This document shows positions 13,342 through 40,571 of a stretch of 64,000 nt of DNA, one piece after another (within the stretch, counting starts at the first letter, position 1; every line of letters starts with the position of its first letter). The notes beneath the pieces were generated by a model. The model did no database searches and was not told the origin of the DNA. It saw nothing but the letters and a program-made list of their open reading frames with translations. A program made the position numbers and the translations under genes. Source of the stretch: Candidatus Promineifilaceae bacterium (GTDB lineage: Bacteria; Chloroflexota; Anaerolineae; Promineifilales; Promineifilaceae); the NCBI GenBank assembly GCA_965223395.1, contig OZ244996.1:2064876-2128875 (forward strand), written 5' to 3'.

Positions 13342-14004
13342 ATGGTTCAGGTAAAAATTTGCGGGCTTACTAATTTGGAAGACGCCATGACGGCGGCAAA
13401 TGCCGGCGCAGATTACTTGGGCTTTATTTTGTGGGATGGCAGCAAAAGGGCGGCGAAAAAACGGACAGTTGCCGGCATTTCCGCTGCCCTCAAAAGCCGT
13501 CCAAAACCGCCCAAATTAATCGGCGTCTTCGTCAACAGCCCCATTGACGAAGTCGCTGCAACGCTTGACCAATGCAACTTGGATTTCGCCCAATTGCATG
13601 GCGATGAACCGCTCTGGCAAATTACAGACCCTGATTCCCCCTTGTTTGGCAAAGCGTTTAAAGCGATTCGACCCACCTCGGCGGCGGAAGCTCACATGGA
13701 AACAGCTCGTTATCTGCCGCTTAAACGTTTGCCCAACCAGCCAGCTTTGCTTATCGACGCCTACCATCCTCAATTGCCAGGCGGCACTGGCGCTAAAACC
13801 GATTGGACAATAGCCCGAACATTGACAAAAGAGAATGCCGGCATCTTCTTGGCGGGCGGTCTCACACCAGAAAATGTCAGCCAGGCGGTTCGCTCCGTTC
13901 AACCCTTCGGCGTCGATGTCGCCAGCGGCGTCGAAACAGCGCCAGGGGAAAAATCACACGAGCTTGTCAAACGGTTCATCTACCATGCCCGTCAAAGCCA
14001 TTAG
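13342..14004 (+). CDS. trpF: Phosphoribosylanthranilate isomerase
   Basis: MVQVKICGLTNLEDAMTAANAGADYLGFIL typical TrpF N-terminus; 220 aa. Confidence 0.85.
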   Translation: MVQVKICGLTNLEDAMTAANAGADYLGFILWDGSKRAAKKRTVAGISAALKSRPKPPKLIGVFVNSPIDEVAATLDQCNLDFAQLHGDEPLWQITDPDSPLFGKAFKAIRPTSAAEAHMETARYLPLKRLPNQPALLIDAYHPQLPGGTGAKTDWTIARTLTKENAGIFLAGGLTPENVSQAVRSVQPFGVDVASGVETAPGEKSHELVKRFIYHARQSH

Positions 14005-15535
14005 GCGCCAAACGCCACTCATATCCCAACGAATTTCTTGGACAAACCAATGGAAGATAATCGCTATATTGGGGCTGGCATTTTGGTTACGAGTAAAAGG
14101 ATTGGGAGCTCGTTCATTATGGTTTGACGAATCGATTGAATATTGGATGGCGGCAATACCCATTCGACAAATTCCAGCCACGATTGCCGCATCTACGCAC
14201 GATCCCCCACTTTATTCAATTCTGCTCCATTTTTGGCTAAGAGGCGGATTGACCGAATTTTGGCTGCGTTTTCCATCTATGATAACCAGTTTATTAAGTG
14301 TGGTCTTTATTTACATATATGGAAAGATGGTCGGCGGTAAAACAGTTGGCGCGATATCAGCGTTTTTGTTGGCGCTTAATGTCGCTGATATTCGTTATGC
14401 CCAAGAGGCAGGACAATATGCTTTTTTGGTTCTATCCTCAATATTAACATTGATATTCTTGCAAAAGGCTATCCACAACAATGAATGGAAATGGTGGGGT
14501 TTGTGGGGAAGCATAACCGCTTTGTCGCTCAATTTTCATTATGGTTCATTTGTTTTTGCCGGCATTCTCTCGAGTTTGTCTCTTTTGTGGCTCTTTTGGC
14601 GGAAAAAGCGGCAAACCTATACAAGAATGATCATAACGACCATGTTGGTCGCAATATTATCGGCGCCATTGCTTTTTTGGATTGTACCTCGCCAATTTAA
14701 CCGATTAGGAGTAACGGAGCCATTGGTTTTTTCCTGGCTAGAGCTTCTCAACGGAACATGGCAAATCATGATTTTCCAATGGGTTGGCAATCGGGGTTTT
14801 TGGGACGTCATTTGGGAAGCCGTTCCTTTGTGGTTTTATGGTCTGCCGCTGATAGCGCCATTCTGTTTAGCGTTTAGCAAAACCCGTTCTCTTTTTTCCC
14901 CGCCAATTCTATTAATTTTGTCCCTCCTTGGATATTATCTGATCAGCCGGACAGGCGGATATTTCTTTTCGCCAAGCAGACATTCTTTATTTCTTGCGCC
15001 GCTTTTGATGGTTTCATTAGGCATAGGAATCCACATCTTAATGACATGGCGAAATTTAGCGGGATTCATAACTATCGGATCGATTGCCATTATCGCTTTG
15101 GCAATGCCTTTGGAAAGAGGAGAAGATTTAAAAAGCGTCACCCATCGGTGGCAATTAGAAAAGAGAAGCGACGATACAACGTTTGTCTATTATGGGGCTG
15201 CGCCAGGCTTTAGCTATCAACTTGATGTAGCTAAAGGGGCGATTTCTCAATTGCCAACAAGCTGGTTTGGGAGCTGTTACGCTCAAGAGCAAATACCCGC
15301 TTGTGGTTCAGAACAAATTTATTATGGTTCATGGAGCCGGCACGTGCCGGCAGAAGAACAACGCGCCAGGATAGACGCCCAAATCAACCCTTTGCCACAA
15401 CGTTTATGGCTCATATTTTCACATACCGTTTTAGCTGATCAAACGGCAATATTAGATGGGCTGGCGCCAGATTATGAGAAAACTCAGGAATTTTCTTACG
15501 ACAATGCTTCTCTAATCTTGATGGAGCAGAGATAG
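13985..15535 (+). CDS. GT-C fold membrane glycosyltransferase (GT39/ArnT/PMT-like)
   Basis: Start at ATG 13985 (overlaps trpF end by 20 nt); many TM helices; WFDESIEYW DE-motif in first extracytoplasmic loop typical of GT39/GT83. Confidence 0.6.
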   Translation: MPVKAIRRQTPLISQRISWTNQWKIIAILGLAFWLRVKGLGARSLWFDESIEYWMAAIPIRQIPATIAASTHDPPLYSILLHFWLRGGLTEFWLRFPSMITSLLSVVFIYIYGKMVGGKTVGAISAFLLALNVADIRYAQEAGQYAFLVLSSILTLIFLQKAIHNNEWKWWGLWGSITALSLNFHYGSFVFAGILSSLSLLWLFWRKKRQTYTRMIITTMLVAILSAPLLFWIVPRQFNRLGVTEPLVFSWLELLNGTWQIMIFQWVGNRGFWDVIWEAVPLWFYGLPLIAPFCLAFSKTRSLFSPPILLILSLLGYYLISRTGGYFFSPSRHSLFLAPLLMVSLGIGIHILMTWRNLAGFITIGSIAIIALAMPLERGEDLKSVTHRWQLEKRSDDTTFVYYGAAPGFSYQLDVAKGAISQLPTSWFGSCYAQEQIPACGSEQIYYGSWSRHVPAEEQRARIDAQINPLPQRLWLIFSHTVLADQTAILDGLAPDYEKTQEFSYDNASLILMEQR

Positions 15536-18274
15536 ATGCCTCTTCCAACCTGGCTGCCGGCATTAACGCTAGGGCTTTTTGCCGGTAGGGTGGCTAGCGA
15601 ACGGCTAAAATTGCCGCTTTGGCTTGGCGCCTTACTCACGCTGGGATTTTGCGCTGGGGCGGTCTGGTTATGGCAGCGGGAATTGTGGGGGCGAGGAGCG
15701 CCTTTGTTGTGGTTGTGGCTTTATTTGCCTTATCCCGATCAATCTCCCAAGCTGGCGTTGGCGGCGGCTGGATGCGCTTTTGTCGCCCTGTTCTTACATT
15801 ATTTTGCCCCTCGCCTCCGATTTTCTCCCCAAATTATGGCTGCCGGCATCTTTTTGGCGTTCGCTGGATTGTACATCGCCACCCTTTCGCCAAACATCAT
15901 GCCGGCAGACAATGGCGAATTTCAACTGGCGGCGGCAAAATGGGGGGTAGCCCATCCGCCCGGTTTTCCGCTGTACACAATACTTGCCGCCACTTTCGCC
16001 CATCTGCCCTTGCCGGGCGAAACCATTTTTCGCATCAATCTGTTTGCCGCCCTCACCAGCGCCGCTGCCCTAACTGTTTTGTATGCCGCCGTTTGGCAAA
16101 AGACCCGCCGCCACCTTGCCGGCATCTTGGCAGCCGTAGCGCTTGGCGGGTCTAGCGCTTTTTGGACACAAGCCAGATTTGCCAATATTCGGGGCATGAC
16201 AACCTTATTTGCCGGCTTAAGTTTGTTGGCTTTTTGTTGGCTTCTGGCGCGCCCAGAAAAACCCGGAAAGCCCTTATTTGGACTCATATTGTCGCTCAGT
16301 TTAGGGGTGTTTCATCATCCGTCATTGGCGTTTATGGGGGCAATTTGGGGAGCGATTGGGCTTTGGGCAGGGCGAAATTGGCTGAAACGCCCTCGAAATT
16401 GGGGGTGGCTGCTGCTTGCCGGCATTTTGGGGTTTGCCCTAACGCTCTATTTGCCGCTGCGTGGCGCGGCTGGGGCATGGGGGGCGCCAGCCAATTTAGC
16501 TAGTTGGAACGGCTTCTGGAACCATCTTCTTGCGCGCGGATTTGCCGGCGACTTCTTCTATTTCACCAAACCTGCTCTCTTCGGGCAGCGGCTGTTGGTG
16601 ATGGGCAACATTTTGTCGTTGCAATTTAACGGCTGGCTATTGGCGGGAGCGGCATTAGGAGGGCTGTCGTTACTCCGAAAAAATCGCTTGCTCGCTATTG
16701 GAACAGGTTTGGGTTTTGCCGTTCATCTTGCTGTTACCGCCATCTATCGCGCCCCACAAAGCATAGAATATATGATGCCGGCATATCTTATTCTCGCCTT
16801 TTGGCTGGGAAGCGCGGTCACGCTCAATTGGAGTTTGTTCGATTTTAAATTAGCCAAAATATTGGCGCCGATTTTGCTCATTGCCGGCATTTTCCAGGCG
16901 GCGTCAAATGCCCAAAACTTTCTCCATTATCAAAATGATACCAGCCAAATCAGCCGAGATTGGCTAGAAAACGCCCCGCCAGACGCCGTCATTTTAGCCA
17001 ATTGGCATTGGGCAACCCCTTTGTGGGCATGGCAGCAAATCGAGGGGTTGCGACCTGATGTGCAGGTTGAATATGTGCCCCCTAGCGGCATCCCTTATGC
17101 TGAAAGTTGGGCGCAAACGATCAGCCAGGCTCTTGCCACGGATCGGGATGTGATAGCCACCAACCATTATCGGGAAGCGTATGGCGAATTGCCGGCATTC
17201 GAACCATTTGGCGAAGCGCTTCTATTCCGGCAAACTCCTCGCCAAGCGATGCCGGCAGGTTTTGTGCCGCTCGAAATCGAATTGCCGGATGGCGGGCGGC
17301 TGCTTGGCTATGACCCATTGCCGGCAACTGCCGCTCTGACAGATGAACTCATCATAACGGTAGCATGGCAGCCCAAGACGACAGAACCGACCCCCATTTT
17401 TGCCCATTTGGTAGATGAAACTGGGAAATTGGCTGGGCAATTTGATACGACAATAACCCTGCCTGAAGCTGGCGTTGCCCTAATGAGGTTGCCTGTAACG
17501 CCCACATTTGGCAGCCAACCTGGGCTCTATCAACTCCTGATCGGTATCGGCCAGAATCCGCGCATGCCCCTGGCAACCATCAAGTTAACGTCCGCCAATC
17601 AACCGATGTTCAGCCAAAATCCCCTCTACCGTCCCGTTCCCAGCGGCGGAGCAGAATTGACGCTAATCGGATATGATTGGGATAAAACGCTGTCCGATCA
17701 ATTGCCGCGATTGTATCTGCACTGGCGGGTTGATAACGGGTATCGAACTGAGCTTTTTAGCTCGGAATCCTATCCAGATTTAAGCGGATTTCGCTGTTTC
17801 CGCGCCTGGAACGCCTTGTTGCCTTGTCCAATTCCCGAGCCGAAAGAAGCGCATTACATCCCCTTCGGGCAAGGCATTGTGTGGACTGGATTTGGCTGGA
17901 GAGGAAACGGCGCCATCGTTCCTGGCACCCAGTGGACTCTGCCGTTAACCTTTGGCTCCAGTAAACCATTGTTCCGCGATTATGTGGTTTCCGCCCGCCT
18001 GGTGGGGTACGAGGCGGATGATTTTCATTGGGCTTGGTGGGATTTAATTGATGGCGTGCCGGCATTAGGCGGAATTCCCACCTTGAAATGGATGATAGGC
18101 TCACAAATTTACGATCCGCATCGCTTTAATGCGCCATCTGCCGCTCAACCTGGCGGGGATGCAGAAGTTCTGCTTATGCTTTACGACGCTTTTTCTGAGG
18201 AGCGGCTGCCCGTTTTGGATGATCGAATCGAAACGATTTGGGCTCCTCTAGGCAAAAGAATCATAGAGAAATAG
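15536..18274 (+). CDS. DUF2723 (TMEM260-like) GT-C membrane protein with large C-terminal extracytoplasmic domain
   Basis: 912 aa; N-terminal multi-TM with ADNGEFQLAAAKWGVAHPPGFPLYTIL signature of DUF2723; ATG overlaps upstream stop (TAGATG) indicating translational coupling. Confidence 0.6.
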   Translation: MPLPTWLPALTLGLFAGRVASERLKLPLWLGALLTLGFCAGAVWLWQRELWGRGAPLLWLWLYLPYPDQSPKLALAAAGCAFVALFLHYFAPRLRFSPQIMAAGIFLAFAGLYIATLSPNIMPADNGEFQLAAAKWGVAHPPGFPLYTILAATFAHLPLPGETIFRINLFAALTSAAALTVLYAAVWQKTRRHLAGILAAVALGGSSAFWTQARFANIRGMTTLFAGLSLLAFCWLLARPEKPGKPLFGLILSLSLGVFHHPSLAFMGAIWGAIGLWAGRNWLKRPRNWGWLLLAGILGFALTLYLPLRGAAGAWGAPANLASWNGFWNHLLARGFAGDFFYFTKPALFGQRLLVMGNILSLQFNGWLLAGAALGGLSLLRKNRLLAIGTGLGFAVHLAVTAIYRAPQSIEYMMPAYLILAFWLGSAVTLNWSLFDFKLAKILAPILLIAGIFQAASNAQNFLHYQNDTSQISRDWLENAPPDAVILANWHWATPLWAWQQIEGLRPDVQVEYVPPSGIPYAESWAQTISQALATDRDVIATNHYREAYGELPAFEPFGEALLFRQTPRQAMPAGFVPLEIELPDGGRLLGYDPLPATAALTDELIITVAWQPKTTEPTPIFAHLVDETGKLAGQFDTTITLPEAGVALMRLPVTPTFGSQPGLYQLLIGIGQNPRMPLATIKLTSANQPMFSQNPLYRPVPSGGAELTLIGYDWDKTLSDQLPRLYLHWRVDNGYRTELFSSESYPDLSGFRCFRAWNALLPCPIPEPKEAHYIPFGQGIVWTGFGWRGNGAIVPGTQWTLPLTFGSSKPLFRDYVVSARLVGYEADDFHWAWWDLIDGVPALGGIPTLKWMIGSQIYDPHRFNAPSAAQPGGDAEVLLMLYDAFSEERLPVLDDRIETIWAPLGKRIIEK

Positions 18275-18480
18275 TTGGCTAAATTCCCAATTAGAACCAC
18301 GTTTTGGGCTTGACGAGGGATGCCAGAACAGCGTAAAATAAGAGCCACGGTTAGCTGTTGGGAGGGTTTGGAGACAACCGGAATATGTATTGTAATTGAG
18401 TAGAAAAACAAATTTAAATCGCCCCCAAAAATCATCATTTTCCCCCGGTGGTTTGGGACGTTTTTTACAGGAACGCCTCC

Positions 18481-19611
18481 ATGAGATCGAAGCTTTTTAC
18501 GAATATCGCCTGGTTTGTTATGGCGCTGATATTGCCGGCATTAGCTTGCGCCCAAACTGAAAGTGGGGTTCCGCCCACCCCCCAACCTTCCTCCGAGCAG
18601 TCAGTGCAAGCGGCGATAGCCACCATCAACGCTGCCCGAACCGCCCCAAACAACAATTTAATAGAAGCTAGTCCAGCCCTGCAAGGCTCGTTGGTAACGA
18701 TTTACCAAAACGCCAACCCGGGCGTGGTGCATGTCGTCACTACATTTGGCAGCGGCAGCGGCTTTGTGTATGACGAAATAGGGCACATCGTCACCAACAA
18801 TCATGTGATCGAAGGCGACACTGCATTTGAACTGGTGTTTAGCAATGGAGAGCGACGCGAGGCGCAATTAGTCGGAGCTGACTCCGCCGCCGATTTGGCG
18901 ACGTTATTGGTTTCAGATGGATTGCCGGTAGGGGTTAAACCGCTGCCTTTAAGCGATTCCAACCAGATTCACGTCGGACAAGTGGTGGCGGCGATTGGCA
19001 GCCCCTTTGGGGCCACCGGCTCCATGTCGATGGGGATCGTAAGCGGCTTAGGACGGCTGCTTAACGCCTCGAATACCCCGTACTCCCTGCCAGAAGTGAT
19101 CCAAACGGACGCCCCGATCAACCCCGGCAATTCTGGCGGACCGTTGCTCAACATGGATGGGCATGTGATTGGAGTCAACTCAGCAATACGCAGTCAAACC
19201 GGCGTTAATTCCGGGGTAGGATTCGCTATACCGGTCAATGCAGTCCGCCGAATTGTGCCATCTTTAATCGCCAAAGGCAGCTACGATTACCCATATTTGG
19301 GGGTGCAGGTCAACGGCGCTCCTATTACGCTCGATTTACAAGAGGATTTAGGCTTGCCCCAAACTTCCGGAGCTTACATCCAAGAGGTGATTGCCGGCAG
19401 CCCCGCAGACGATGCCGGTTTAATTGGGCAGCGCGGACCAGGCGGCGACCTGATCGTGGCTATCGACGAACAGACTGTGATTGAGTTCAACGACTTGTTA
19501 GGCTATCTCGTGTTTGAGACAGAGGTTGGGCAGCAGGTGCAACTGACCGTCGTTCGAGATGGCGAAGAGCGTCTCATACCGGTGACTTTAGGCGCTAGAC
19601 CAAGCCAATAG
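18481..19611 (+). CDS. HtrA/DegP-family trypsin-like serine protease with PDZ domain
   Basis: Signal peptide; catalytic motifs VTNNHV (His), GNSGGPL (Ser), C-terminal PDZ. Confidence 0.85.
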   Translation: MRSKLFTNIAWFVMALILPALACAQTESGVPPTPQPSSEQSVQAAIATINAARTAPNNNLIEASPALQGSLVTIYQNANPGVVHVVTTFGSGSGFVYDEIGHIVTNNHVIEGDTAFELVFSNGERREAQLVGADSAADLATLLVSDGLPVGVKPLPLSDSNQIHVGQVVAAIGSPFGATGSMSMGIVSGLGRLLNASNTPYSLPEVIQTDAPINPGNSGGPLLNMDGHVIGVNSAIRSQTGVNSGVGFAIPVNAVRRIVPSLIAKGSYDYPYLGVQVNGAPITLDLQEDLGLPQTSGAYIQEVIAGSPADDAGLIGQRGPGGDLIVAIDEQTVIEFNDLLGYLVFETEVGQQVQLTVVRDGEERLIPVTLGARPSQ

Positions 19612-19691
19612 GAGGCGAGTGATAAGCAAAATAGCCCAAAATATATGAAAAAGATTGTTGGTAAACCTTTTTTAACAAACGGAGGCTTTCG

Positions 19692-20792
19692 ATGTTAACT
19701 ATTCAGGAACTACAACGTATATCCGCTTTTGAAGCGCCAGCGGGAAGCCAAGTGATCTCACTTTATTTGGGAGTTGACCTAGCCCAGCAAAGCAAAGACG
19801 CAATCAAATTAACAGCCAGAGCGCTGTTGAAGGAAGCGGAAGAAAAGCTGCCCGGATCAAGCGCGGGTATCGACCATTTTTTGAATGCCGAACATGATTG
19901 GCAAAAAGCTGGTTTGGCTTTGTTTTCGTGTCCTGAAGCCTCTTTTTTCAAAACCTTTGCGGTGCAAACCCCATTTCGAAATCGCATTCGCATCGGCGAC
20001 AAACCTTATATCAAGCCGCTGGCGCATTTGGTTGAATATTACGCCAACTATGGAGCGATTTTAGTGGATAAGGTTGGGGCTAAATTTTTCCATTTTCATC
20101 TAGGCGAATTGGTGGAGAATGCCGGCACAATGGGGGAAGAAGTTCGCAAAATAAAAACCGGGCAAGGCTCTTCTACAACTGGGATGCGAGGCGGACAGGG
20201 CAGCAACGACCATGATGAAGATGTAGCCCGAAATTTGCGCCAGGCTGCCCACAACTCCGCCACATTTTTTGCCAAGCGGAAAATTCGCCGCCTCTTTTTG
20301 GGCGGCTCAAACGATACGGTAGCCCATTTTCGTCAATACCTGCCCAAACAGATGCAAGCCCAAATCGCCGGCGTTTTTCCATCTAGCATGGATGTTGGCG
20401 AACACGAGGTACGCGCCACAACGTTACGCCTTTTAGGCGAAGCCAATACCCATCGGGAAACCCAACTAGTAGACGAACTTATCGATAAGGCGGCAAAAGG
20501 AGGCAGTGGCGTGGTCGGCATCTCCAGAACATTGCACGCCATCAACGAAGGTCGGGTACAAACGTTGATTTTGGCAGATGGCTTTCGCCTTCCCGGCTAT
20601 CAAGATAGCGCCACTGGCAGCTTGACCTATGAAGGAGACGGTCATTTTGACGACGAATCGTGGCAGCCAGTTGGCGATGTGGTCGATAGAGCTGTCGAAC
20701 GCACCCTCGCCTATGGAGGGCATGTAGAAGTGGTCAGCGACAATCCATATTTGGAACGAGAAGGGAAGATCGGGGCATTGCTTCGTTATTGA
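19692..20792 (+). CDS. Bacterial eRF1-like (baeRF) release-factor-fold protein with GGQ motif
   Basis: 366 aa; central MRGGQGS (GGQ peptidyl-tRNA hydrolysis motif) and C-terminal eRF1 domain-3-like region GVVGISRTLHAINEGRVQTLIL. Confidence 0.55.
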   Translation: MLTIQELQRISAFEAPAGSQVISLYLGVDLAQQSKDAIKLTARALLKEAEEKLPGSSAGIDHFLNAEHDWQKAGLALFSCPEASFFKTFAVQTPFRNRIRIGDKPYIKPLAHLVEYYANYGAILVDKVGAKFFHFHLGELVENAGTMGEEVRKIKTGQGSSTTGMRGGQGSNDHDEDVARNLRQAAHNSATFFAKRKIRRLFLGGSNDTVAHFRQYLPKQMQAQIAGVFPSSMDVGEHEVRATTLRLLGEANTHRETQLVDELIDKAAKGGSGVVGISRTLHAINEGRVQTLILADGFRLPGYQDSATGSLTYEGDGHFDDESWQPVGDVVDRAVERTLAYGGHVEVVSDNPYLEREGKIGALLRY

Positions 20793-20882
20793 CCCCCTCT
20801 CGTCTTAATCGGGAAAAAAATGGCTGCCAATTATCATTGACCATAATCTGAAGAAGTTTTGAAACTAGAAGTGAGACGATTA

Positions 20883-22250
20883 ATGGGGATAATTGGCAGC
20901 GCCAGATGGCGACAGAGATGGGGAAGCTGGGGGAAATGGTTGTTGCCGGCATTTTTTAGCCTAAGTTTGCTCATGGGGTTAGGCGGCTGCGCAGCTTTAA
21001 GAGGCGGTAATGAGAATGGCGCTGCTTCCCCAACAACCGTACCTATTCCTATCGATACCCCCGATTTTCCGCTGCCAGAGCGTACCATCCCGCCTATTTT
21101 GCCCGATGCCAACCCCGCGCTCCTAACAGTTTGGCTCACCCTAGAAAATTCGCCCGCCGCTGGAGCGGGTCGCGGCGCGGAATTGGCAGCCCAAATCGAA
21201 GCGTTTGACGTCAACAATGCCGGCATCGAAATCATCATTGCCGAAAAAGCTTTGACGGGGCAAGGAGGCATTTTAAGCTATTTACGCACTGGTCGAGATG
21301 TTGCCCCGCAAGCGTTGCCGGATCTGATCTTGCTGCCGGCAAATCAATTGCCAGCCGCTTTTGACGAAAGGTTGATTTTTCCTTTAACTCAAATAGACGA
21401 ACTAGATTTTGAGCCAGATTTGTTCCCTGTCGCAGCTCAGATGGCGCGGGTAAACGGCGAATTAGCCGGCTTGCCCTATTTTCTGAATGGCATGCCCCAT
21501 TTGGCGTATGATAGCGGGGTTTTTACCAGCACAACGCCGGCAACTTGGTCGGACTTAGAGATGAGCGGGGCGCAAATGGCAGTGCCTGCCAATGGCCGCG
21601 ACGGGGCAGATTTGTTGCTGCTATTTTATCTAAGCTTAGGCGGCTCGCTTCAGGACGAAACAGGGGCGACGCGCATTCAGCCCGCCATATTGCGTGAAGC
21701 GTTGGCTCTGTTTCGGCAGGGGCATGAGCAAGGATGGATTTTGCCGGAAAGCGGGAATTTAAGCTCCTACCAGGAAGCGTGGGCGATGTTCGCTCAGGGA
21801 AATGCCGGCATCGTACCTGTTTCTGCCGACCAATTTATACAGGAAAGAGCCAACGGGCATAGCGCTGATTTTTTGCCCTTGCTAGGGCAAAACGCCTCTG
21901 TACCTACCTGGGCGGATGGCTGGGTTTGGGCGGCAACCTCCACCAATCCAACCCAACAACGCATCGTGGGAGAGTTGTTGTCTTGGTTGACAAATCCAGA
22001 AAATTTGGGGACATTAAGCGCCAACCATTTGACGCTGCCCGCCCGACGCAGCGCTTTCGCTTATTGGTCGCCCAACGACCCATACGTTGATTTTTTGCAA
22101 AACGAACTTGAAAAAGCCCAAATGATTCCGCCCGATGCCGGCAACGCTGTCCGAAGCGCTTTTCAGGAAGCTTTTTCCCAGGTCATCTCTGGATCGCAAT
22201 CGGCTGAAGACGCGGCGCAACGGGTAGCAGATTTGATCAACGCCAATTGA
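20883..22250 (+). CDS. Extracellular solute-binding lipoprotein (SBP family 1-like), orphan
   Basis: Signal/lipobox LLMGLGGCAA; SBP-like architecture; start could alternatively be TTG 20859; no adjacent permease genes. Confidence 0.55.
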   Translation: MGIIGSARWRQRWGSWGKWLLPAFFSLSLLMGLGGCAALRGGNENGAASPTTVPIPIDTPDFPLPERTIPPILPDANPALLTVWLTLENSPAAGAGRGAELAAQIEAFDVNNAGIEIIIAEKALTGQGGILSYLRTGRDVAPQALPDLILLPANQLPAAFDERLIFPLTQIDELDFEPDLFPVAAQMARVNGELAGLPYFLNGMPHLAYDSGVFTSTTPATWSDLEMSGAQMAVPANGRDGADLLLLFYLSLGGSLQDETGATRIQPAILREALALFRQGHEQGWILPESGNLSSYQEAWAMFAQGNAGIVPVSADQFIQERANGHSADFLPLLGQNASVPTWADGWVWAATSTNPTQQRIVGELLSWLTNPENLGTLSANHLTLPARRSAFAYWSPNDPYVDFLQNELEKAQMIPPDAGNAVRSAFQEAFSQVISGSQSAEDAAQRVADLINAN

Positions 22251-22344
22251 TATGCCGGCAGCCGATTATTAAGCCAAAGGGTGGCAATTGACGCCTCTTG
22301 TGAGAAAATAACCGCGTCAAGTTTGTAAAATAGTGCGAGAGGTT

Positions 22345-23787
22345 ATGACAGTTACATTTGGAACGGATGGATGGCGAGCCGTAATCAGCGACAACTTTAC
22401 TTTTGAAAATTTGCGGTTAGTAACCCAGGCGATAGCCGATTTTGTGTTGGAAGAAAATGCCCAAACCCCATCAGCAGTAATTGGCTTCGACACGCGATTT
22501 TTGTCTGATCGATACGCGGCGGAAGCGGCGCGGGTGTTGGCAGCAAATGGGATTCACGCCTGGCTTTCGCGGGCAGACGCGCCAACGCCCGCCATCAGTT
22601 ACGCCATTGTTCACAAAGTGGCTACTGCCGGCATTATGATCACCGCTAGCCATAATCCGCCCCGGTACAATGGCGTCAAACTAAAAGCCAGCTACGGCGG
22701 CAGCGCTAGCAAAGCCCAACATAATCGGGTCGAACAGCTTTTAGCCCGCAACCAGGCAAACGATTTGCCGCCAAAATTGGTCGATTTTGACCAGGCTAGA
22801 GAAGCGGGAACGATTGAAAAGTTTGATCCTGCCTGGGCATATTACGAACATCTGGGCAAGCTGGTTGATTTAGATTGCATCTCTTCCGGCGAATTGCGGG
22901 TGGTATGCGACGGCATGTTCGGCTCTGGCAGGGGAGTAATTGGCGAAGTGCTAACCAGGGGGCGAACGCGCATTCTAAACATTCGGCACGAAATGAATCC
23001 CGGGTTCGGCGGCATCCATCCCGAACCTATCGCCAAATATTTGCGGACGCTGTGTTCGGCGATTCAGGGGGGCAATTGGGATGTGGGCTTGGCGACAGAT
23101 GGGGATTCTGATCGAATTGGCGCGGTTGATGCCAATGGGGCGTTTGTCGATCCACATCGGATATTTGCCTTGGTGTTGCAATACCTGATCGAAAAGCGGG
23201 GTTGGCGAGGGCGGGTGGCGCGTACTGTCTCTACCACGCGGATGATCGACCGCATCGCTAAGAAGCATGGTTTGACGGTAATCGAAACGCCGGTGGGGTT
23301 CAGTTACATCGCCGATTTGATGATGGAAGGGGATTTTTTGATGGGAGGCGAAGAGTCGGGGGGGATGAGCGTGCAAGGGCATATTCCAGAAGGGGATGGG
23401 GTGCTGATGGGGCTGTTGCTGCTGGAGGTGATGGCGCATGCCGGCAAACCGTTGCACCGGCTTGTCGATGAATTGCTGACGGAATTTGGTCCTGCCCAAT
23501 ACGCCCGCGCCGATCTAAAAATAAGCCGCCCCGTGAACAAAAGCGCTCTATCAAACGGCTTGCAAAAATCTGCCCCGTCAGAGATTGCCGGCATTCAGTT
23601 AGAGCGAGTCGATGTAACCGACGGCATCAAATATTATCTGGCTGACGGCAGTTGGTTGCTGGTGCGACCCTCTGGCACAGAGCCAGTGTTGCGCGTCTAT
23701 GCCGAAGCGGCAAACGATGAGCGGGTGGCAGCCCTGCAAGCTTTTGGCGAAAGGATCGCCAAAGAAACGGAAAATTTACCGGATTAA
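22345..23787 (+). CDS. Phosphoglucomutase/phosphomannomutase family protein
   Basis: TASHNPPRYNG active-site phosphoserine loop; four-domain PGM/PMM length. Confidence 0.85.
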   Translation: MTVTFGTDGWRAVISDNFTFENLRLVTQAIADFVLEENAQTPSAVIGFDTRFLSDRYAAEAARVLAANGIHAWLSRADAPTPAISYAIVHKVATAGIMITASHNPPRYNGVKLKASYGGSASKAQHNRVEQLLARNQANDLPPKLVDFDQAREAGTIEKFDPAWAYYEHLGKLVDLDCISSGELRVVCDGMFGSGRGVIGEVLTRGRTRILNIRHEMNPGFGGIHPEPIAKYLRTLCSAIQGGNWDVGLATDGDSDRIGAVDANGAFVDPHRIFALVLQYLIEKRGWRGRVARTVSTTRMIDRIAKKHGLTVIETPVGFSYIADLMMEGDFLMGGEESGGMSVQGHIPEGDGVLMGLLLLEVMAHAGKPLHRLVDELLTEFGPAQYARADLKISRPVNKSALSNGLQKSAPSEIAGIQLERVDVTDGIKYYLADGSWLLVRPSGTEPVLRVYAEAANDERVAALQAFGERIAKETENLPD

Positions 23788-30908: not shown

Positions 30909-33092
30909 ATGACTCAGTTGCCACAACAAACGGACAAGCAAGGGGATCGGGCACAACAACCAGCCCAAAGAGTTCGCCAACAGGTAATATCTCGGCAAAG
31001 ACAATTCGCCGAAATGAACGCCAGTGTCGCCAGTTTGCGTACAGAAGCGGATCGAGCTACCAGTTTACTGGGTTTCGGCAAGCGCATTTTGGTGCCGCCA
31101 GACGAAATTCATGTGGTTGTAGGCGATGGGTATCATGTTTATTCGGGCAGCAACGAGCGCAAGGTGTATGGGCAAAGCGCCGACCGACCAGCCCGCTATT
31201 GGCTCAACTCTCATACCCAGGTTATTAAGCTTAAGACGATCAGCTTCACTGTACCTATCCGCGGATATGGCAACCGTGGCGTTGAAGCGTTAGACAATAA
31301 CAAGGTTAGCTTTAGGTTGTGGGCGCATGCCGTAGCCAAACTTAATCCAGAAAAAGCGGAAGTTGCCGCCCAACGAGTGGGAAATGACGCCAGCGGCTTG
31401 ATCAACACTATAACTGAAGTTGGTACGGCTGAACTAATAGCCGCCGCTGCCGGCATGACGCTAGAAAAAATCATTCAAAACCGGCAGCAACTGGCGGAAG
31501 ACGCCTTCCCCAAAGTCAATAATATCTTGTCTGAACTAGGCTACGATCTGGCGTTACTAACCATCACTGAATTGGATGGCGAAGCGTATCGCAAATTGGT
31601 CACTCAGGCTGAAGCGGGCATCTCCAAAGAGACCAGTATCGCCACCAACCGCGAGCAGTTAGCGGAACTGCACGACGACCAAGCCCGCGCCCAGCGTGAA
31701 GCGGAAATCAGCGCCGAAACGGACAAAAAGTTGGCTGCCGAACGGCTGGAAGCGGAACGAGAAGTGCAAACAGCCACCTTGAGTCAACAGGAGCAGTTAA
31801 CTGTGCGTCAGCATGAGATCAATCTGCTGCAAATTGATCGAGAAAAGTCGGCAGCCCAGGCGCAAAATGAAGCGGAGCTGGTCAAAGTTGAATATAGTCG
31901 GAAAGTGAGTTTGGCTGAAGCGGGGCGAGAAGCGGAAATCGCCCGCATAAAGGCGGAGAAAGAGGCGGAGCTTCGAGCATTGGCTCAAAAACGCCAGGCG
32001 GCAATCGTTCTGGCAGAAACAGAAGCTGAGGCAGAAAAGCAAGCTTTAGCCCAACTTCGCGCCATCGAGCGGCGGGCTGAATTGACCCAGGCGGAAGCTG
32101 AACGGCTTCAGGAAGAGCAATTGACCAAAGCGCAGCGAGCCAAAGAGGTGGCATTGGTTGAAGCCAACAAATTGGCGGAAAGTTTAAAGGTGGAAGCTGA
32201 GGCGGAATCGCTAGCATTAAATTTGCGAACGGCAGCAGAAGCAAAAGCGACCTTAACCAAAGCGGAGGCAGAATCGACTTCGGCGGAAAAGCTGGCGCAG
32301 GCGGCAAAAATCAGGGCAGAGGCTGTGCAAGCGGAGAAGGCGGCGCCGGGATTAGCTGATGCAGAAGTAGAAGAAGCCCGGCTGCAAGTTCTGGAACAAC
32401 AGGTAACGGTCAAACGGGCGGAAGGGTTGGCGCAGGCGGAGATCGCCAAAGCGCAAGCGGAGGCGGATGCAGACCGGATGCAGCGAATCAAGCAAGTGGA
32501 AATTGAAGCGCAAAAGAAGCTGGCGACTTTGTATGAGTCGGCTCCAGTTTTGGTTGATTTAGAGCAATTGCGTATGAAATTTGACCACGAATCTAATTTA
32601 ATGCGGATTCAGGCGGATGCCAGGCTAAAGATGTTTGAAGCAATGGCGCCTAATATGAAGATCAATTTGTATGGCAGCGGCGGACAAATGGATGATATTT
32701 TAGGCAATTTGATGAAATTTGCTTATGGCTTGGAAACATTAAAAGCGGAATCTCCAATCGCCGCCAAATTACTATCTGGCAACGGGACTGACGATAACTC
32801 GGCGCCGGGTTTAAGAGAGCATTTCGACAAGTTGATGCCGGCATTGGGCAGCCTGATCAGCGAAACAAATCCCCGCATTTTATCCAGCCTCAAGGTGAAT
32901 GACGTTGTGGCGCGATTGACGCCTGTGGTGTCTGGAGATGAGGATTTGACGGGAGCATTAACCCAACTCAAAGAGGATGCTACGCTGCGAATGATTGGCG
33001 ACATGCCGGTCTCGCCTCTTTTGGAAATGTTAGGCGTAAAAATGCCGGCAAATTCCGAATCGGAAACGACTGAGATAGAGATCGTCAGCTAA
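30909..33092 (+). CDS. SPFH/flotillin-like protein with extended Glu/Ala-rich coiled coil
   Basis: N-terminal band-7/flotillin-like region then about 300 aa of EA-rich heptad repeats (AEAE, AQAEA); AGGAGA RBS. Confidence 0.5.
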   Translation: MTQLPQQTDKQGDRAQQPAQRVRQQVISRQRQFAEMNASVASLRTEADRATSLLGFGKRILVPPDEIHVVVGDGYHVYSGSNERKVYGQSADRPARYWLNSHTQVIKLKTISFTVPIRGYGNRGVEALDNNKVSFRLWAHAVAKLNPEKAEVAAQRVGNDASGLINTITEVGTAELIAAAAGMTLEKIIQNRQQLAEDAFPKVNNILSELGYDLALLTITELDGEAYRKLVTQAEAGISKETSIATNREQLAELHDDQARAQREAEISAETDKKLAAERLEAEREVQTATLSQQEQLTVRQHEINLLQIDREKSAAQAQNEAELVKVEYSRKVSLAEAGREAEIARIKAEKEAELRALAQKRQAAIVLAETEAEAEKQALAQLRAIERRAELTQAEAERLQEEQLTKAQRAKEVALVEANKLAESLKVEAEAESLALNLRTAAEAKATLTKAEAESTSAEKLAQAAKIRAEAVQAEKAAPGLADAEVEEARLQVLEQQVTVKRAEGLAQAEIAKAQAEADADRMQRIKQVEIEAQKKLATLYESAPVLVDLEQLRMKFDHESNLMRIQADARLKMFEAMAPNMKINLYGSGGQMDDILGNLMKFAYGLETLKAESPIAAKLLSGNGTDDNSAPGLREHFDKLMPALGSLISETNPRILSSLKVNDVVARLTPVVSGDEDLTGALTQLKEDATLRMIGDMPVSPLLEMLGVKMPANSESETTEIEIVS

Positions 33093-39509: not shown

Positions 39510-40571
39510 ATGGAACTGTTTGCCGCATTGCCAGATAGAGCGCAAGCTGTAATTTATATTGCCATTGGATTGGCGCTTTTATATGGCGCATTGTTTATTT
39601 TGGGGCACATTTTGTTTAAGGGGGATGAGGCATGGCGGACGCTGTTTGTACTTGGCGGATTTGTGGCGGGGGGCATAGCGGCGTCGCTCTATTTGGATAA
39701 TCAACCTATATTGCCGGCAACCATCGTGGCTAAAAATGAACAGGTTTACATTAACAGAATTATATTTGGGTCTGATGTAAGTTGGGATAATCAATTTGAG
39801 CTAACGGCAAAATTTATCCCAGACGGAGAAAGCCAACCGGTAGAAGCTGTCTTATCTGCCCAGGGCGCCCAATTTGATGGGTTCGCCGTGGGCGAGGCTA
39901 TTGAGATTAAACATTGGCGGGCTGGCGGGGCGCTTGAACTGGCGCGATTGTCGAATCGCTCCACATTTTCTCTACTTCTCGGCTCCAGCATGTGGCGAGC
40001 TGTTTTATTGATCGCTTTGGGAGTCGGGCTGGCATGGGCAGCCAGCGCTATTCGCAAAGATGTAACGGCTGGATTGTTTGTAGCTGCCATCTATATCGTA
40101 TTCATATTGGGAGGGACTATCGCCTCTCAATGGTTGAAGGCGGCGCCCATTAGAGGGGCATCAAAACCAACAACTGGAACGGTAATTCAGGTGACGCACA
40201 GATCGCAAACATTTTCTGCTAGACCTCGAACTCGCATGAAACTCCTGCAACCCATTGAGTTTTGGGAAGTGGAGTTTACGCCGCCCGAAGTTGGGGACAA
40301 GGTACGAGGGGTGGATGTAATAGATGCCGGCATTTTACAGGGCGAGTACGGCGACCAAATCAATTTCGTTTACGACCCCGATAATCCCCGCCGCATTCAG
40401 TTGGTTGACGGCAGACGACTTTACGCGGTGAAAAATGGGATTTCGCCTACTGGGACTCCCCTTCTAATCTTCGCTATCGCCGCTTGGTTTTTCCGCCCTG
40501 GCAAAAAATGGCGTTCCGATAGCAAGAAAAGGGAAGGCGACAGGGAAGCAAATCAGGCTGCAAAGCGGTAA
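39510..40571 (+). CDS. Hypothetical membrane protein (two TM + beta-rich repeats)
   Basis: GGGGAGG RBS; hydrophobic helices at N-terminus, middle and C-terminus; no recognisable catalytic motif. Confidence 0.4.
   Translation: MELFAALPDRAQAVIYIAIGLALLYGALFILGHILFKGDEAWRTLFVLGGFVAGGIAASLYLDNQPILPATIVAKNEQVYINRIIFGSDVSWDNQFELTAKFIPDGESQPVEAVLSAQGAQFDGFAVGEAIEIKHWRAGGALELARLSNRSTFSLLLGSSMWRAVLLIALGVGLAWAASAIRKDVTAGLFVAAIYIVFILGGTIASQWLKAAPIRGASKPTTGTVIQVTHRSQTFSARPRTRMKLLQPIEFWEVEFTPPEVGDKVRGVDVIDAGILQGEYGDQINFVYDPDNPRRIQLVDGRRLYAVKNGISPTGTPLLIFAIAAWFFRPGKKWRSDSKKREGDREANQAAKR

What the first reader, a model, noticed from the sequence alone, without database searches (positions are those of the whole stretch)
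19692..20792. Bacterial eRF1-like protein retaining a GGQ motif
This 366-aa protein carries a central MRGGQGS sequence, which is the GGQ peptidyl-tRNA hydrolysis loop of class-I release factors. It also has a C-terminal region resembling eRF1/Pelota domain 3. Bacterial archaeo-eukaryotic release-factor-like (baeRF) proteins are uncommon and are thought to act on stalled ribosomes. Here the gene sits between an HtrA protease and an orphan solute-binding lipoprotein, with no obvious partner ATPase.
Basis: partly seen in the sequence, partly recalled or inferred. Interest (0 to 1): 0.6.

Follow-up and report, generated by a model that had tools for sequence, protein, structure and literature searches.

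The report
Balon-like ribosome factor, look-alike GGQ
This gene encodes a bacterial relative of the archaeal/eukaryotic release factor eRF1 that most resembles the ribosome hibernation factor Balon, and its "GGQ" is a poorly conserved look-alike in a lineage-specific loop insertion, not a retained catalytic motif.

Summary

The "retained GGQ" reading fails. Across 81 species-level orthologues only 26 have a contiguous RGGQ. Position 169 is among the protein's most variable sites, with at least 28 changes on the tree, while R166-G167-G168 is fixed. Profile alignments place the ancestral GGQ site at G157-Q158-G159, and G164–G170 (GMRGGQG) is a 7-residue clade-specific insertion. The NIKS-equivalent loop is unconserved.

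"No partner" is also misleading. The HtrA protease gene lies directly upstream on the same strand in 73 of 76 loci, often preceded by a DnaJ/CbpA-like gene. A sister clade sits in DnaJ–MerR–baeRF10–ClpB operons.

Best reading: a stress-operon, non-catalytic A-site ribosome-silencing factor of the Balon type (inferred, not shown). Burroughs & Aravind (2019) had already proposed family 10 as a possible hydrolase. This is a new member of a known kind, of modest interest.

The parts
19692..20792 (+). Gene for a 366-aa baeRF-1 family 10 / Balon-like protein (stop codon included)
19681..19685 (+). Shine-Dalgarno GGAGG, 6 nt upstream of the ATG
   Evidence: Read directly from the sequence.
19692..20003 (+). 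N domain (aa 1-104), smaller than that of eRF1. The NIKS-equivalent loop (aa 48-58) is unconserved.
   Evidence: AF2 secondary structure. Entropy of 2.56 bits at residues 48-58. The core-family alignment places aRF1's SNIKSK on this loop.
20004..20426 (+). M domain (aa 105-245), matched by Pfam baeRF_family10
20148..20174 (+). K153-I-K-T-G-Q-G-S-S161: the conserved K-x-K-x-G-x-G-S-S motif, which is the positional equivalent of the aRF1/eRF1 K-x-x-x-G-G-Q-S segment
   Evidence: hhalign of A1 against A2 pairs G157-x-G159-S160 with the core-family G-G-W-S. The core G-G-W aligns without gaps to aRF1/eRF1 G-G-Q. HMMER puts eRF1 GGQ on G159-S160-S161.
20181..20201 (+). G164-M-R-G-G-Q-G170: a clade-specific 7-residue insertion that holds the literal GGQ (codons at 20190-20198). 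G164, R166, G167 and G168 are near-invariant; Q169 is hypervariable.
20205..20270 (+). Start of the long helix after the loop (aa 172-193), with invariant R180, N181, R183 and F192-F193. It corresponds to the Arg-rich helix that follows GGQ in aeRF1 proteins.
   Evidence: The concept comes from PMC6514570.
20454..20789 (+). C domain (aa 255-366), eRF1_3/Pelota-like, ending in the family motif IGALLRY
20583..20672 (+). Cys-free two-strand insert (aa 298-327) at the site of the aRF1/core-family-10 zinc ribbon. It is the counterpart of the EF-Tu-contacting beta-hairpin of Balon.
   Evidence: AF2 strands at 302-305 and 324-327. hhalign to the 4-Cys ribbon of the core family. The protein has only one Cys (sequence).
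18448..19611 (+). HtrA-type serine protease (Trypsin_2+PDZ) with an N-terminal signal or anchor. The likely start is the ATG at 18481. It is the conserved upstream partner gene.
   Evidence: Pfam. Co-directional and ending less than 400 nt upstream in 73 of 76 loci. 71 of 73 have an N-terminal hydrophobic segment and 73 of 73 have G[NSD]SGG.
18310..18339 (+). Promoter-like site TTGACG-18-TAAAAT upstream of htrA. It is the only + strand promoter-like match in 18000-22400.
   Evidence: consensus match only; the number of sites does not exceed the shuffle expectation.
19612..19691 (+). 80-nt htrA-baeRF10 intergenic spacer with no promoter-like or terminator-like match on the + strand
   Evidence: The median spacer across loci is 101 nt.

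Best explanation
The gene encodes a Balon-type member of bacterial aeRF1 family 10. It is a cytoplasmic three-domain tRNA/eRF1 mimic that most likely occupies the A site of 70S ribosomes and silences or protects them during proteotoxic stress, without hydrolysing peptidyl-tRNA.

Shown here:
- The fold and domain order.
- The family assignment.
- The conservation pattern.
- The gene neighbourhood.

Inferred by homology to the solved Balon-ribosome complexes:
- The small N domain lacks any conserved NIKS-like tip, so it would contact the decoding centre independently of a stop codon.
- The M-domain loop (residues 148-170) is an expanded Gly/Ser/Arg-rich loop with two conserved motifs, K-x-K-x-G-x-G-S-S and G-x-R-G-G. 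It would approach the peptidyl-transferase centre as an rRNA-binding element, like Balon's lasso loop around A2602, followed by the Arg-rich helix (R180, N181, R183).
- The Cys-free hairpin that replaces the ancestral zinc ribbon in the C domain would contact EF-Tu.

The gene is probably co-transcribed with the upstream exported HtrA protease, and in many relatives with a DnaJ/CbpA-like co-chaperone. Translation shut-down would then be switched on together with protein quality control.
For: - Pfam baeRF_family10 at E=8e-24.
- Nearest PDB sequences are Balon MSMEG_1130 and Rv2629.
- AF2 model with pLDDT 91 and pTM 0.84.
- Foldseek: the six best hits are all ribosome-bound Balon, TM 0.65-0.76, against about 0.5 for eRF1.
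- MSMEG_1130 is itself a family-10 member at 124.6 bits. It binds the A site and inhibits translation (PMC10901736).
- Q169 is hypervariable while RGG is fixed.
- The GGQ lies in an insertion.
- The NIKS-equivalent loop is unconserved.
- The zinc ribbon is replaced by a hairpin.
- HtrA lies upstream in 73 of 76 loci, and DnaJ in 27 of 70. Both paralogous copies on one contig keep their own HtrA.
- The sister clade sits in DnaJ-MerR-baeRF10-ClpB operons, with ClpB present in 12 of 12.
- Balon genes are reported to sit in stress operons that include DnaJ/DnaK/Hsp20.
Against: - There is no experiment on this clade. Ribosome binding is inferred from about 19-20% identity plus fold.
- NCBIfam's three ribosome-hibernation-factor equivalog models are hit far below their cutoffs, for example 90.8 against 480 bits.
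- The Balon-defining HP motif and bL27 trap could not be located.
- No HPF/RaiA gene was found nearby, although that test was weak.
- The near-invariance of G-x-R-G-G shows strong selection on the loop, and its purpose is unknown.
- No CIRCE or HAIR heat-shock operator was found, so stress induction is inferred from gene content only.
- The loop is disordered in the model (pLDDT about 53), so its reach toward the peptidyl-transferase centre is unknown.
Confidence: 0.6

Rival explanations
1. Active peptidyl-tRNA hydrolase or rescue factor. The R-G-G-(Q) loop would enter the peptidyl-transferase centre of stalled ribosomes and release the nascent chain, which DnaJ, ClpB or HtrA-type quality control would then handle.
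For: - The window protein has a literal RGGQ, like eRF1's RGGQ.
- A direct hhalign to a single eRF1 sequence pairs the two GGQs.
- R166, G167 and G168 are near-invariant.
- RF catalysis is attributed to the backbone amide of the Gln rather than its side chain (PMC6742477), so loss of Q does not chemically exclude hydrolysis.
- PMC6514570 proposed that family 10 is potentially active.
- The proteostasis neighbours would suit the handling of released chains.
Against: - Q is present in only 26 of 81 species and the site has changed at least 28 times. Pro occurs there in 3 of 120 sequences.
- Loop length varies from 27 to 34 residues, unlike the narrow range that PMC6514570 reports for catalytic families.
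- GMRGGQG is an insertion relative to core family 10 and aRF1/eRF1.
- The pairing needs an 8-residue gap plus a 3-residue insertion.
- At the true GGQ position, core family 10 has an invariant W and this clade an invariant G.
- The solved family-10 member MSMEG_1130 is described as lacking a GGQ motif, and Balon-bound ribosomes keep their nascent chain.
- HtrA is exported, so it cannot act on cytosolic released chains.
Confidence: 0.15
2. Non-catalytic Pelota/Dom34-like rescue factor. It would bind stalled ribosomes with an empty or truncated-mRNA A site and promote subunit splitting or recycling with a GTPase, rather than long-term hibernation.
For: - The same superfamily and three-domain layout.
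- The C domain matches Pelota/eRF1_3.
- The catalytic Gln is absent, as in Dom34.
Against: - No ABCE1-like or Hbs1-like partner gene is nearby.
- The closest characterised relatives are hibernation factors.
Confidence: 0.15
3. A function away from the ribosome: an eRF1-fold protein repurposed as a cofactor or regulator of the HtrA/DnaJ proteostasis module, or as part of a conflict or defence system.
For: - The very tight HtrA linkage.
- PMC6514570 links baeRF-1 to biological conflicts.
Against: - HtrA is exported whereas this protein has no signal sequence or hydrophobic segment.
- There is no PADLOC hit for the protein, and the only plasmid hit is one distant match at 23% identity.
- The conserved Arg-rich helix and the IGALLRY C terminus are the ribosome-facing features shared with aeRF1 and Balon.
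Confidence: 0.04

Closest known systems
Balon homologue MSMEG_1130 (Mycolicibacterium smegmatis; PDB 8v9j/8v9l; NCBIfam NF052288)
   Same: - The same Pfam family (baeRF_family10).
- No NIKS motif and no functional GGQ.
- A two-strand insert in place of the zinc ribbon.
- A stress-linked genomic context.
   Different: - Only about 19-20% identity.
- The window protein scores 90.8 bits against the 480-bit equivalog cutoff.
- The loop between the last M-domain strand and the Arg-rich helix is different: here it carries the K-x-K-x-G-x-G-S-S and G-x-R-G-G motifs.
- The neighbours are HtrA and DnaJ rather than hypoxia-regulon genes.
Balon of Psychrobacter urativorans (PDB 8rd8/8rdv/8rdw; NCBIfam NF052287)
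   Same: - The NCBIfam model is hit at E=4e-18.
   Different: - 14% identity.
[quoted passage not shown]
- No adjacent RaiA gene was found.
Core baeRF-1 family 10 of Anaerolineae (sister clade; annotated by PGAP as 'Vms1/Ankzf1 family peptidyl-tRNA hydrolase')
   Same: - 37% profile identity over 360 columns, hhalign E=2e-97.
- The same phylum.
- Also linked to a DnaJ/CbpA-like gene.
   Different: - The sister clade has a short loop H-K-Q-G-G-W-S-x-x-R-[YF]-Q-R-H with an invariant W at the GGQ position.
- It keeps a 4-Cys zinc ribbon.
- Its operon is DnaJ-MerR-X-ClpB rather than (DnaJ)-HtrA-X.
aRF1/eRF1 class-I release factors (TIGR03676; PDB 4af1, 1dt9)
   Same: - Homologous M and C domains (E=6e-9).
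- The C-terminal G-x-L-R-Y motif.
- The Arg-rich helix after the loop.
   Different: - No NIKS or YxCxxxF motif.
- No conserved GGQ at the equivalent site.
- 35.3 bits against the 234.7-bit cutoff.
- A smaller N domain and no zinc ribbon.
Pelota/Dom34
   Same: The same superfamily, and non-catalytic.

Membership tests
Pfam PF18854 baeRF_family10 | Domain HMM score above the gathering threshold | tested here: met
   85 bits against 27.1, E=8e-24, residues 105-245. The score is lower than for core members, which reach 115-140 bits.
Pfam PF18854 baeRF_family10 | Full aeRF1-like three-domain architecture (N, RNase-H-like M, Pelota-like C) | tested here: met
   [not shown]
Balon-type ribosome hibernation factor | Binds the ribosomal A site and inhibits translation | not testable with these tools
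   Needs biochemistry or cryo-EM. Here it is inferred only from homology.
Balon-type ribosome hibernation factor | Overall structure closest to ribosome-bound Balon rather than to aRF1 or Pelota | tested here: met
   [not shown]
Balon-type ribosome hibernation factor | NCBIfam equivalog cutoffs (NF052288, NF052287, NF052289) | tested here: not met
   90.8 against 480, 66 against 330 and 62.2 against 320 bits. The protein is related to these three subfamilies but is not a member of any of them.
Balon-type ribosome hibernation factor | Absence of a NIKS stop-codon motif | tested here: met
   The loop at residues 48-58, equivalent to aRF1's SNIKSK, has an entropy of 2.56 bits and no conserved residue.
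Balon-type ribosome hibernation factor | Absence of a conserved catalytic GGQ | tested here: met
   The Q is kept in 26 of 81 species. The literal GGQ lies in a 7-residue insertion, and the equivalent of the aRF1 GGQ site is G157-x-G159.
Balon-type ribosome hibernation factor | Beta-hairpin insert in the C domain (EF-Tu contact) in place of the zinc ribbon | tested here: met
   A Cys-free two-strand insert at residues 298-327 aligns to the 4-Cys ribbon of core family 10 and aRF1. The EF-Tu contact itself cannot be tested here.
Balon-type ribosome hibernation factor | [quoted passage not shown] | not testable with these tools
   The papers' text gives no residue numbers and no coordinates were available for superposition. 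An expanded 23-residue loop exists at the lasso-loop position, but whether it is equivalent is unknown.
Balon-type ribosome hibernation factor | Location in a stress-response gene cluster | tested here: met
   HtrA upstream in 73 of 76 loci and DnaJ-like in 27 of 70. The sister clade has DnaJ-MerR-X-ClpB.
Class-I release factor aRF1/eRF1 (TIGR03676) | Model cutoff | tested here: not met
   35.3 against 234.7 bits.
Class-I release factor aRF1/eRF1 (TIGR03676) | Invariant GGQ at the tip of the M domain | tested here: not met
   One method, hhalign against a single eRF1 sequence, does pair the GGQs, so positional homology is probable rather than proven. The non-conservation of Q is unambiguous.
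Class-I release factor aRF1/eRF1 (TIGR03676) | NIKS and YxCxxxF stop-codon recognition motifs | tested here: not met
   The region equivalent to NIKS is variable. The YxCxxxF-equivalent segment is F-R-N-R-x-R-x-G-x-K-P-Y.
Pelota/Dom34 (TIGR00111) | Model cutoff | tested here: not met
   15.8 against 177.65 bits, and only residues 241-298 match.
Vms1/VLRF-1 peptidyl-tRNA hydrolases (PF18859 acVLRF1) | Family HMM match, and a GGxSQ or GxuQ catalytic loop | tested here: not met
   No PF18859 hit for the window protein at E<=1. Members of the sister clade give weak secondary hits only.

The most novel reading that the evidence does not exclude
The invariant G-x-R-G-G insertion is a new peptidyl-transferase-centre-directed element. 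On this reading, this Chloroflexota clade, embedded in htrA/dnaJ proteostasis operons, is a stress-induced A-site factor that actively resolves translating ribosomes. It would do so by backbone-amide-catalysed nascent-chain release, which tolerates loss of the Gln side chain, or by clamping peptidyl-tRNA, coupling translation arrest to protein quality control. That would be a bacterial, eRF1-derived counterpart of ribosome-associated quality control, distinct from passive Balon hibernation.
Probability: 0.12. Interest if true: 0.7.

Novelty: new member of a known kind. Interest (0 to 1): 0.35.

Why it matters
For annotation, proteins of this clade are currently labelled 'hypothetical protein', 'eRF1' or, in the sister clade, 'Vms1/Ankzf1 family peptidyl-tRNA hydrolase'. 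The evidence here says they are better described as Balon-like family-10 A-site factors.

For the field there are three modest points:

1. The literal GGQ tripeptide is not diagnostic. MSMEG_1130 also carries one, in a different place, and the 'well-conserved glutamine' of family 10 is not at the catalytic position. Core members have an invariant W there.
2. Two Anaerolineae clades of family 10 are fixed inside proteostasis operons, (DnaJ)-HtrA-X and DnaJ-MerR-X-ClpB. This ties Balon-type factors to protein-folding stress and offers a testable regulatory context.
3. An invariant RGG-containing loop insertion of unknown role marks the clade.

None of this overturns current understanding.

Tried and rejected
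- **Source contig:** an exact look-up of the window protein's own contig found nothing on record, so the source organism is known only as a Chloroflexota/Anaerolineae-type genome, judged from its relatives.
- **Heat-shock operators:** the CIRCE pattern gave 0 matches in the window. The HspR/HAIR pattern gave 0 in the window and one 2-mismatch site in 1.6 Mb of loci. No heat-shock operator was identified.
- **De novo upstream motif:** a k-mer search upstream of htrA across 74 loci found nothing shared by more than about 15 loci, so this line was dropped.
- **HPF/RaiA neighbour:** This is a weak test.
- **RNA genes:** Rfam and tRNA scans of the window found nothing.
- **Defence or mobile context:** PADLOC gave no hit for the protein. 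HtrA matches only through its generic protease domain. The plasmid collection gave one distant hit at 23% identity. Both readings were rejected.
- **HP motif and bL27 trap:** neither version of the Balon paper gives residue positions in the text.
- **Literature:** no paper addressing GGQ-bearing Balon homologues was found beyond the two cited.
- **Direct hhalign to one eRF1 sequence:** this pairs the GGQs. I consider it an identity-driven artefact, because it needs an 8-residue gap plus a 3-residue insertion and is contradicted by the gapless transitive route and by HMMER.
Full report
**1. Observation**

The ORF at 19692..20792 (+) is real. It starts with ATG, encodes 366 aa and is preceded by a GGAGG Shine-Dalgarno 6 nt upstream. 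The string MRGGQGS occupies residues 165-171.
- upstream, two membrane glycosyltransferases (PMT_2 and TMEM260-like) and an HtrA-type protease (Trypsin_2+PDZ);
- downstream, an SBP_bac_8 solute-binding protein, a phosphoglucomutase/phosphomannomutase, an M20 peptidase on the opposite strand, and ArgG.

A GGQ tripeptide is not statistically notable. Composition predicts 0.18 per protein, so P(at least one)=0.17, and the loop that holds it has 7 Gly in 25 residues. Sixteen of 120 homologues carry a second, plainly irrelevant GGQ in the C domain.

**2. What the protein is**

- *Family libraries.* Pfam assigns it to baeRF_family10 (PF18854, 85 bits, E=8e-24, residues 105-245), with a just-sub-threshold eRF1_3 match in the C domain. 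NCBIfam's best hits are the three 'ribosome hibernation factor' (Balon) equivalogs, but far below their cutoffs (90.8 against 480 bits). aRF1/eRF1 and Pelota follow, also far below cutoff.
- *Solved structures by sequence.* The only significant matches are Balon MSMEG_1130 (E=3e-9) and Rv2629. A profile of 117 homologues hits MSMEG_1130 at 1e-12 and eRF1 at 6e-9.
- *Structure.* An AF2 model built on that alignment is confident (pLDDT 91, pTM 0.84), and only loop 148-170 is disordered.
- *Foldseek against PDB.* The six top hits are all ribosome-bound Balon chains (TM 0.65-0.76). aRF1/eRF1 follow at about 0.5, then Pelota.
- *Shared family.* I reconstructed the MSMEG_1130 sequence from the printed alignment and scanned it. 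It is itself a family-10 member (124.6 bits), whereas Rv2629 belongs to family 2.

The window protein therefore shares its Pfam family with a protein whose A-site binding and translation inhibition have been shown experimentally (PMC10901736).

**3. The GGQ**

*Conservation.*
- In 120 close homologues (46-64% identity), G164, R166, G167 and G168 are near-invariant. Position 169 is Q in only 69 sequences, and some of those Qs are displaced by a 4-residue insertion. The rest are V, T, S, E, P and others.
- In a species-level set (one genome per species, 80 loci plus the window), only 26 of 81 have a contiguous RGGQ.
- On a neighbour-joining tree the site needs at least 11 Q/non-Q switches and at least 28 residue changes.
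- Its entropy is 2.82 bits, against a protein mean of 1.25 and 0.37 for residues 164-168.
- Loop length from K155 to N181 ranges from 27 to 34 residues.

*Positional homology.*
- A library-wide representative search found 2244 relatives. Every one sampled is a family-10 member.
- Most of them carry a shorter loop, [KR]-H-K-Q-G-G-W-S-x-x-R-[YF]-Q-R-H, and a 4-Cys zinc ribbon.
- That core loop aligns without gaps to aRF1 (VPGKQRKGGQSAQRFARL and VPGKHKMGGQSQRRYERI) and to eRF1 (LPKKHGRGGQSALRFARL). The core G-G-W therefore occupies the G-G-Q position.
- Profile-profile alignment of the window's clade against the core (probability 100%, E=2e-97) pairs K155-T-G157-Q158-G159-S160-S161 with k-Q-G-G-W-s-q. 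It leaves G164-M-R-G-G-Q-G170 as a 7-residue insertion.
- HMMER's alignment of eRF1 to the clade profile also puts eRF1's GGQ on the first motif (G159-S160-S161) and gaps out G167-G170.
- Only a direct hhalign against a single eRF1 sequence pairs the two GGQs, and it needs an 8-residue gap plus a 3-residue insertion.

I conclude, as probable rather than proven, that the window's GGQ is a look-alike inside a clade-specific Gly/Arg-rich insertion. That the Q is not conserved is certain.

One caveat is that RF catalysis is attributed to the backbone amide of the Gln (PMC6742477). Loss of the side chain therefore does not chemically exclude hydrolysis.

**4. Other domain features**

- The loop equivalent to aRF1's NIKS (residues 48-58) is the least conserved stretch of the N domain, at 2.56 bits.
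- The YxCxxxF-equivalent segment is a conserved basic F-R-N-R-x-R-x-G-x-K-P-Y-[IV]-K-P-L.
- The helix after the loop carries invariant R180, N181 and R183. This is the Arg-rich feature that Burroughs & Aravind took to indicate large-subunit rRNA contact.
- The C domain has a Cys-free two-strand insert (residues 298-327) at the site of the zinc ribbon. It corresponds to the insert that contacts EF-Tu in Balon.

**5. Gene neighbourhood**

*The window's clade.*
- Of 76 species-level loci with at least 1200 nt of upstream sequence, 73 have a co-directional HtrA gene ending less than 400 nt upstream. The median spacer is 101 nt.
- Independent gene calls confirm the pair. This includes a complete genome where the upstream context is ParA/ParB instead.
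- Two paralogous copies on one contig each have their own HtrA.
- The HtrA is catalytically intact (73 of 73 with the active-site motif) and exported (71 of 73 with an N-terminal hydrophobic segment).
- A DnaJ/CbpA-like gene lies further upstream in 27 of 70 loci.
- The SBP and PGM genes downstream of the window's copy are shared by only 14 and 8 loci, so they are incidental.

*The sister clade and more distant members.*
- In the sister Anaerolineae clade (GGW loop plus zinc ribbon), DnaJ is upstream in 15 of 20 loci. A MerR-family regulator lies between the two genes in 11 loci. ClpB is immediately downstream in 12 of 12.
- More distant family-10 loci lack all of these neighbours.

*The window itself.*
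- The only + strand promoter-like match lies upstream of htrA (18310-18339).
- There is no terminator-like or promoter-like match in the 80-nt spacer.
- Co-transcription is plausible but unproven. No CIRCE or HAIR operators were found.

**6. Mechanism**

The best-supported reading (confidence about 0.6) is a Balon-type, non-catalytic A-site factor that silences or protects ribosomes. It would be expressed together with protein-quality-control genes under proteotoxic stress.

The fold, family, conservation pattern and synteny are shown. Ribosome binding, the role of the loop, the EF-Tu contact and stress induction are inferred.

The rivals are:
- an active hydrolase (0.15);
- a Pelota-like rescue or splitting factor (0.15);
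- a non-ribosomal or defence role (0.04; no PADLOC hit, and the protein is essentially absent from plasmids).

**7. Comparison with what is known, and novelty**

Burroughs & Aravind (2019, PMC6514570) defined the baeRF-1 families and singled out family 10 as possibly catalytic. Helena-Bueno et al. (2024, PMC10901736) showed that such proteins are hibernation factors located in stress operons that include DnaJ/DnaK/Hsp20.

This gene is a new member of that known kind. It belongs to a divergent Chloroflexota sub-clade that lost the zinc ribbon, gained an RGG-containing loop insertion and became fixed next to htrA.

The points that may be new are small:
- the GGQ look-alike;
- the invariant W at the GGQ position in core family 10;
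- the HtrA and ClpB/MerR operon contexts.

Interest: 0.35.

Noticed in passing
PDB 8v9j_z (MSMEG_1130), sequence printed: The experimentally solved Balon homologue MSMEG_1130 scores as Pfam baeRF_family10 (124.6 bits), while Rv2629 scores as family 2. MSMEG_1130 also carries a literal GGQ (RIVVSGGQRWTEP) on a strand unrelated to the catalytic loop, so literal GGQ tripeptides in this superfamily are not diagnostic.
   Followed up: partly
Alignment A2 (38 core family-10 representatives): Core family 10 has an invariant G-G-W exactly where aRF1/eRF1 have G-G-Q. It also has near-invariant Gln residues one position before the GG and in the [YF]-Q-R-H motif. The 'well-conserved glutamine' reported for family 10 in 2019 is therefore probably not at the catalytic position.
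   Followed up: partly
Loci L084-L114 (metagenome contigs), e.g. L087:4805-9833: The sister Anaerolineae clade of family 10 sits in a DnaJ/CbpA-like, MerR-family regulator, baeRF10, ClpB gene string (ClpB downstream in 12 of 12 loci). This resembles an HspR-type heat-shock operon, but no canonical HAIR operator was found.
   Followed up: partly
L049 and L079 (both on contig CAWAPO010000001.1): One genome carries two htrA-baeRF10 pairs about 1.2 Mb apart, which suggests the pair was duplicated or retained as a unit. Neither copy has a contiguous GGQ.
   Followed up: partly
L007:8810-9550 and 23 other loci: A UDG-superfamily (uracil-DNA-glycosylase-like) gene lies immediately downstream of baeRF10 in 24 loci. 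Its start overlaps the baeRF10 stop codon in L007. It is not present in the window, and no rationale was found.
   Followed up: no
window 13835-18274 (+): Two large membrane glycosyltransferase-like genes abut each other: PMT_2 (566 aa) and TMEM260-like protein O-mannosyltransferase (912 aa), with a stop at 15535 and a start at 15536. They lie just upstream of htrA. The TMEM260-like gene is also upstream of htrA in the closest relative (L081).
   Followed up: no
window 40556-42874 (-): A 773-aa ORF with no Pfam match at E<=1e-5.
   Followed up: no
window 51556-53574 (-) and 30909-33089 (+): A RACo-type reductive activator of corrinoid proteins (Fer2 plus RACo domains), and an unusually long (727 aa) SPFH/Band-7 protein. 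Both were noted only during the context survey.
   Followed up: no
window 20859-22250 (+): The downstream SBP_bac_8 protein has a lipobox-like LMGLGGC near its N terminus and no adjacent permease or ATPase genes. It is syntenic with baeRF10 in only 14 of 80 loci, so it is probably unrelated to the finding.
   Followed up: partly
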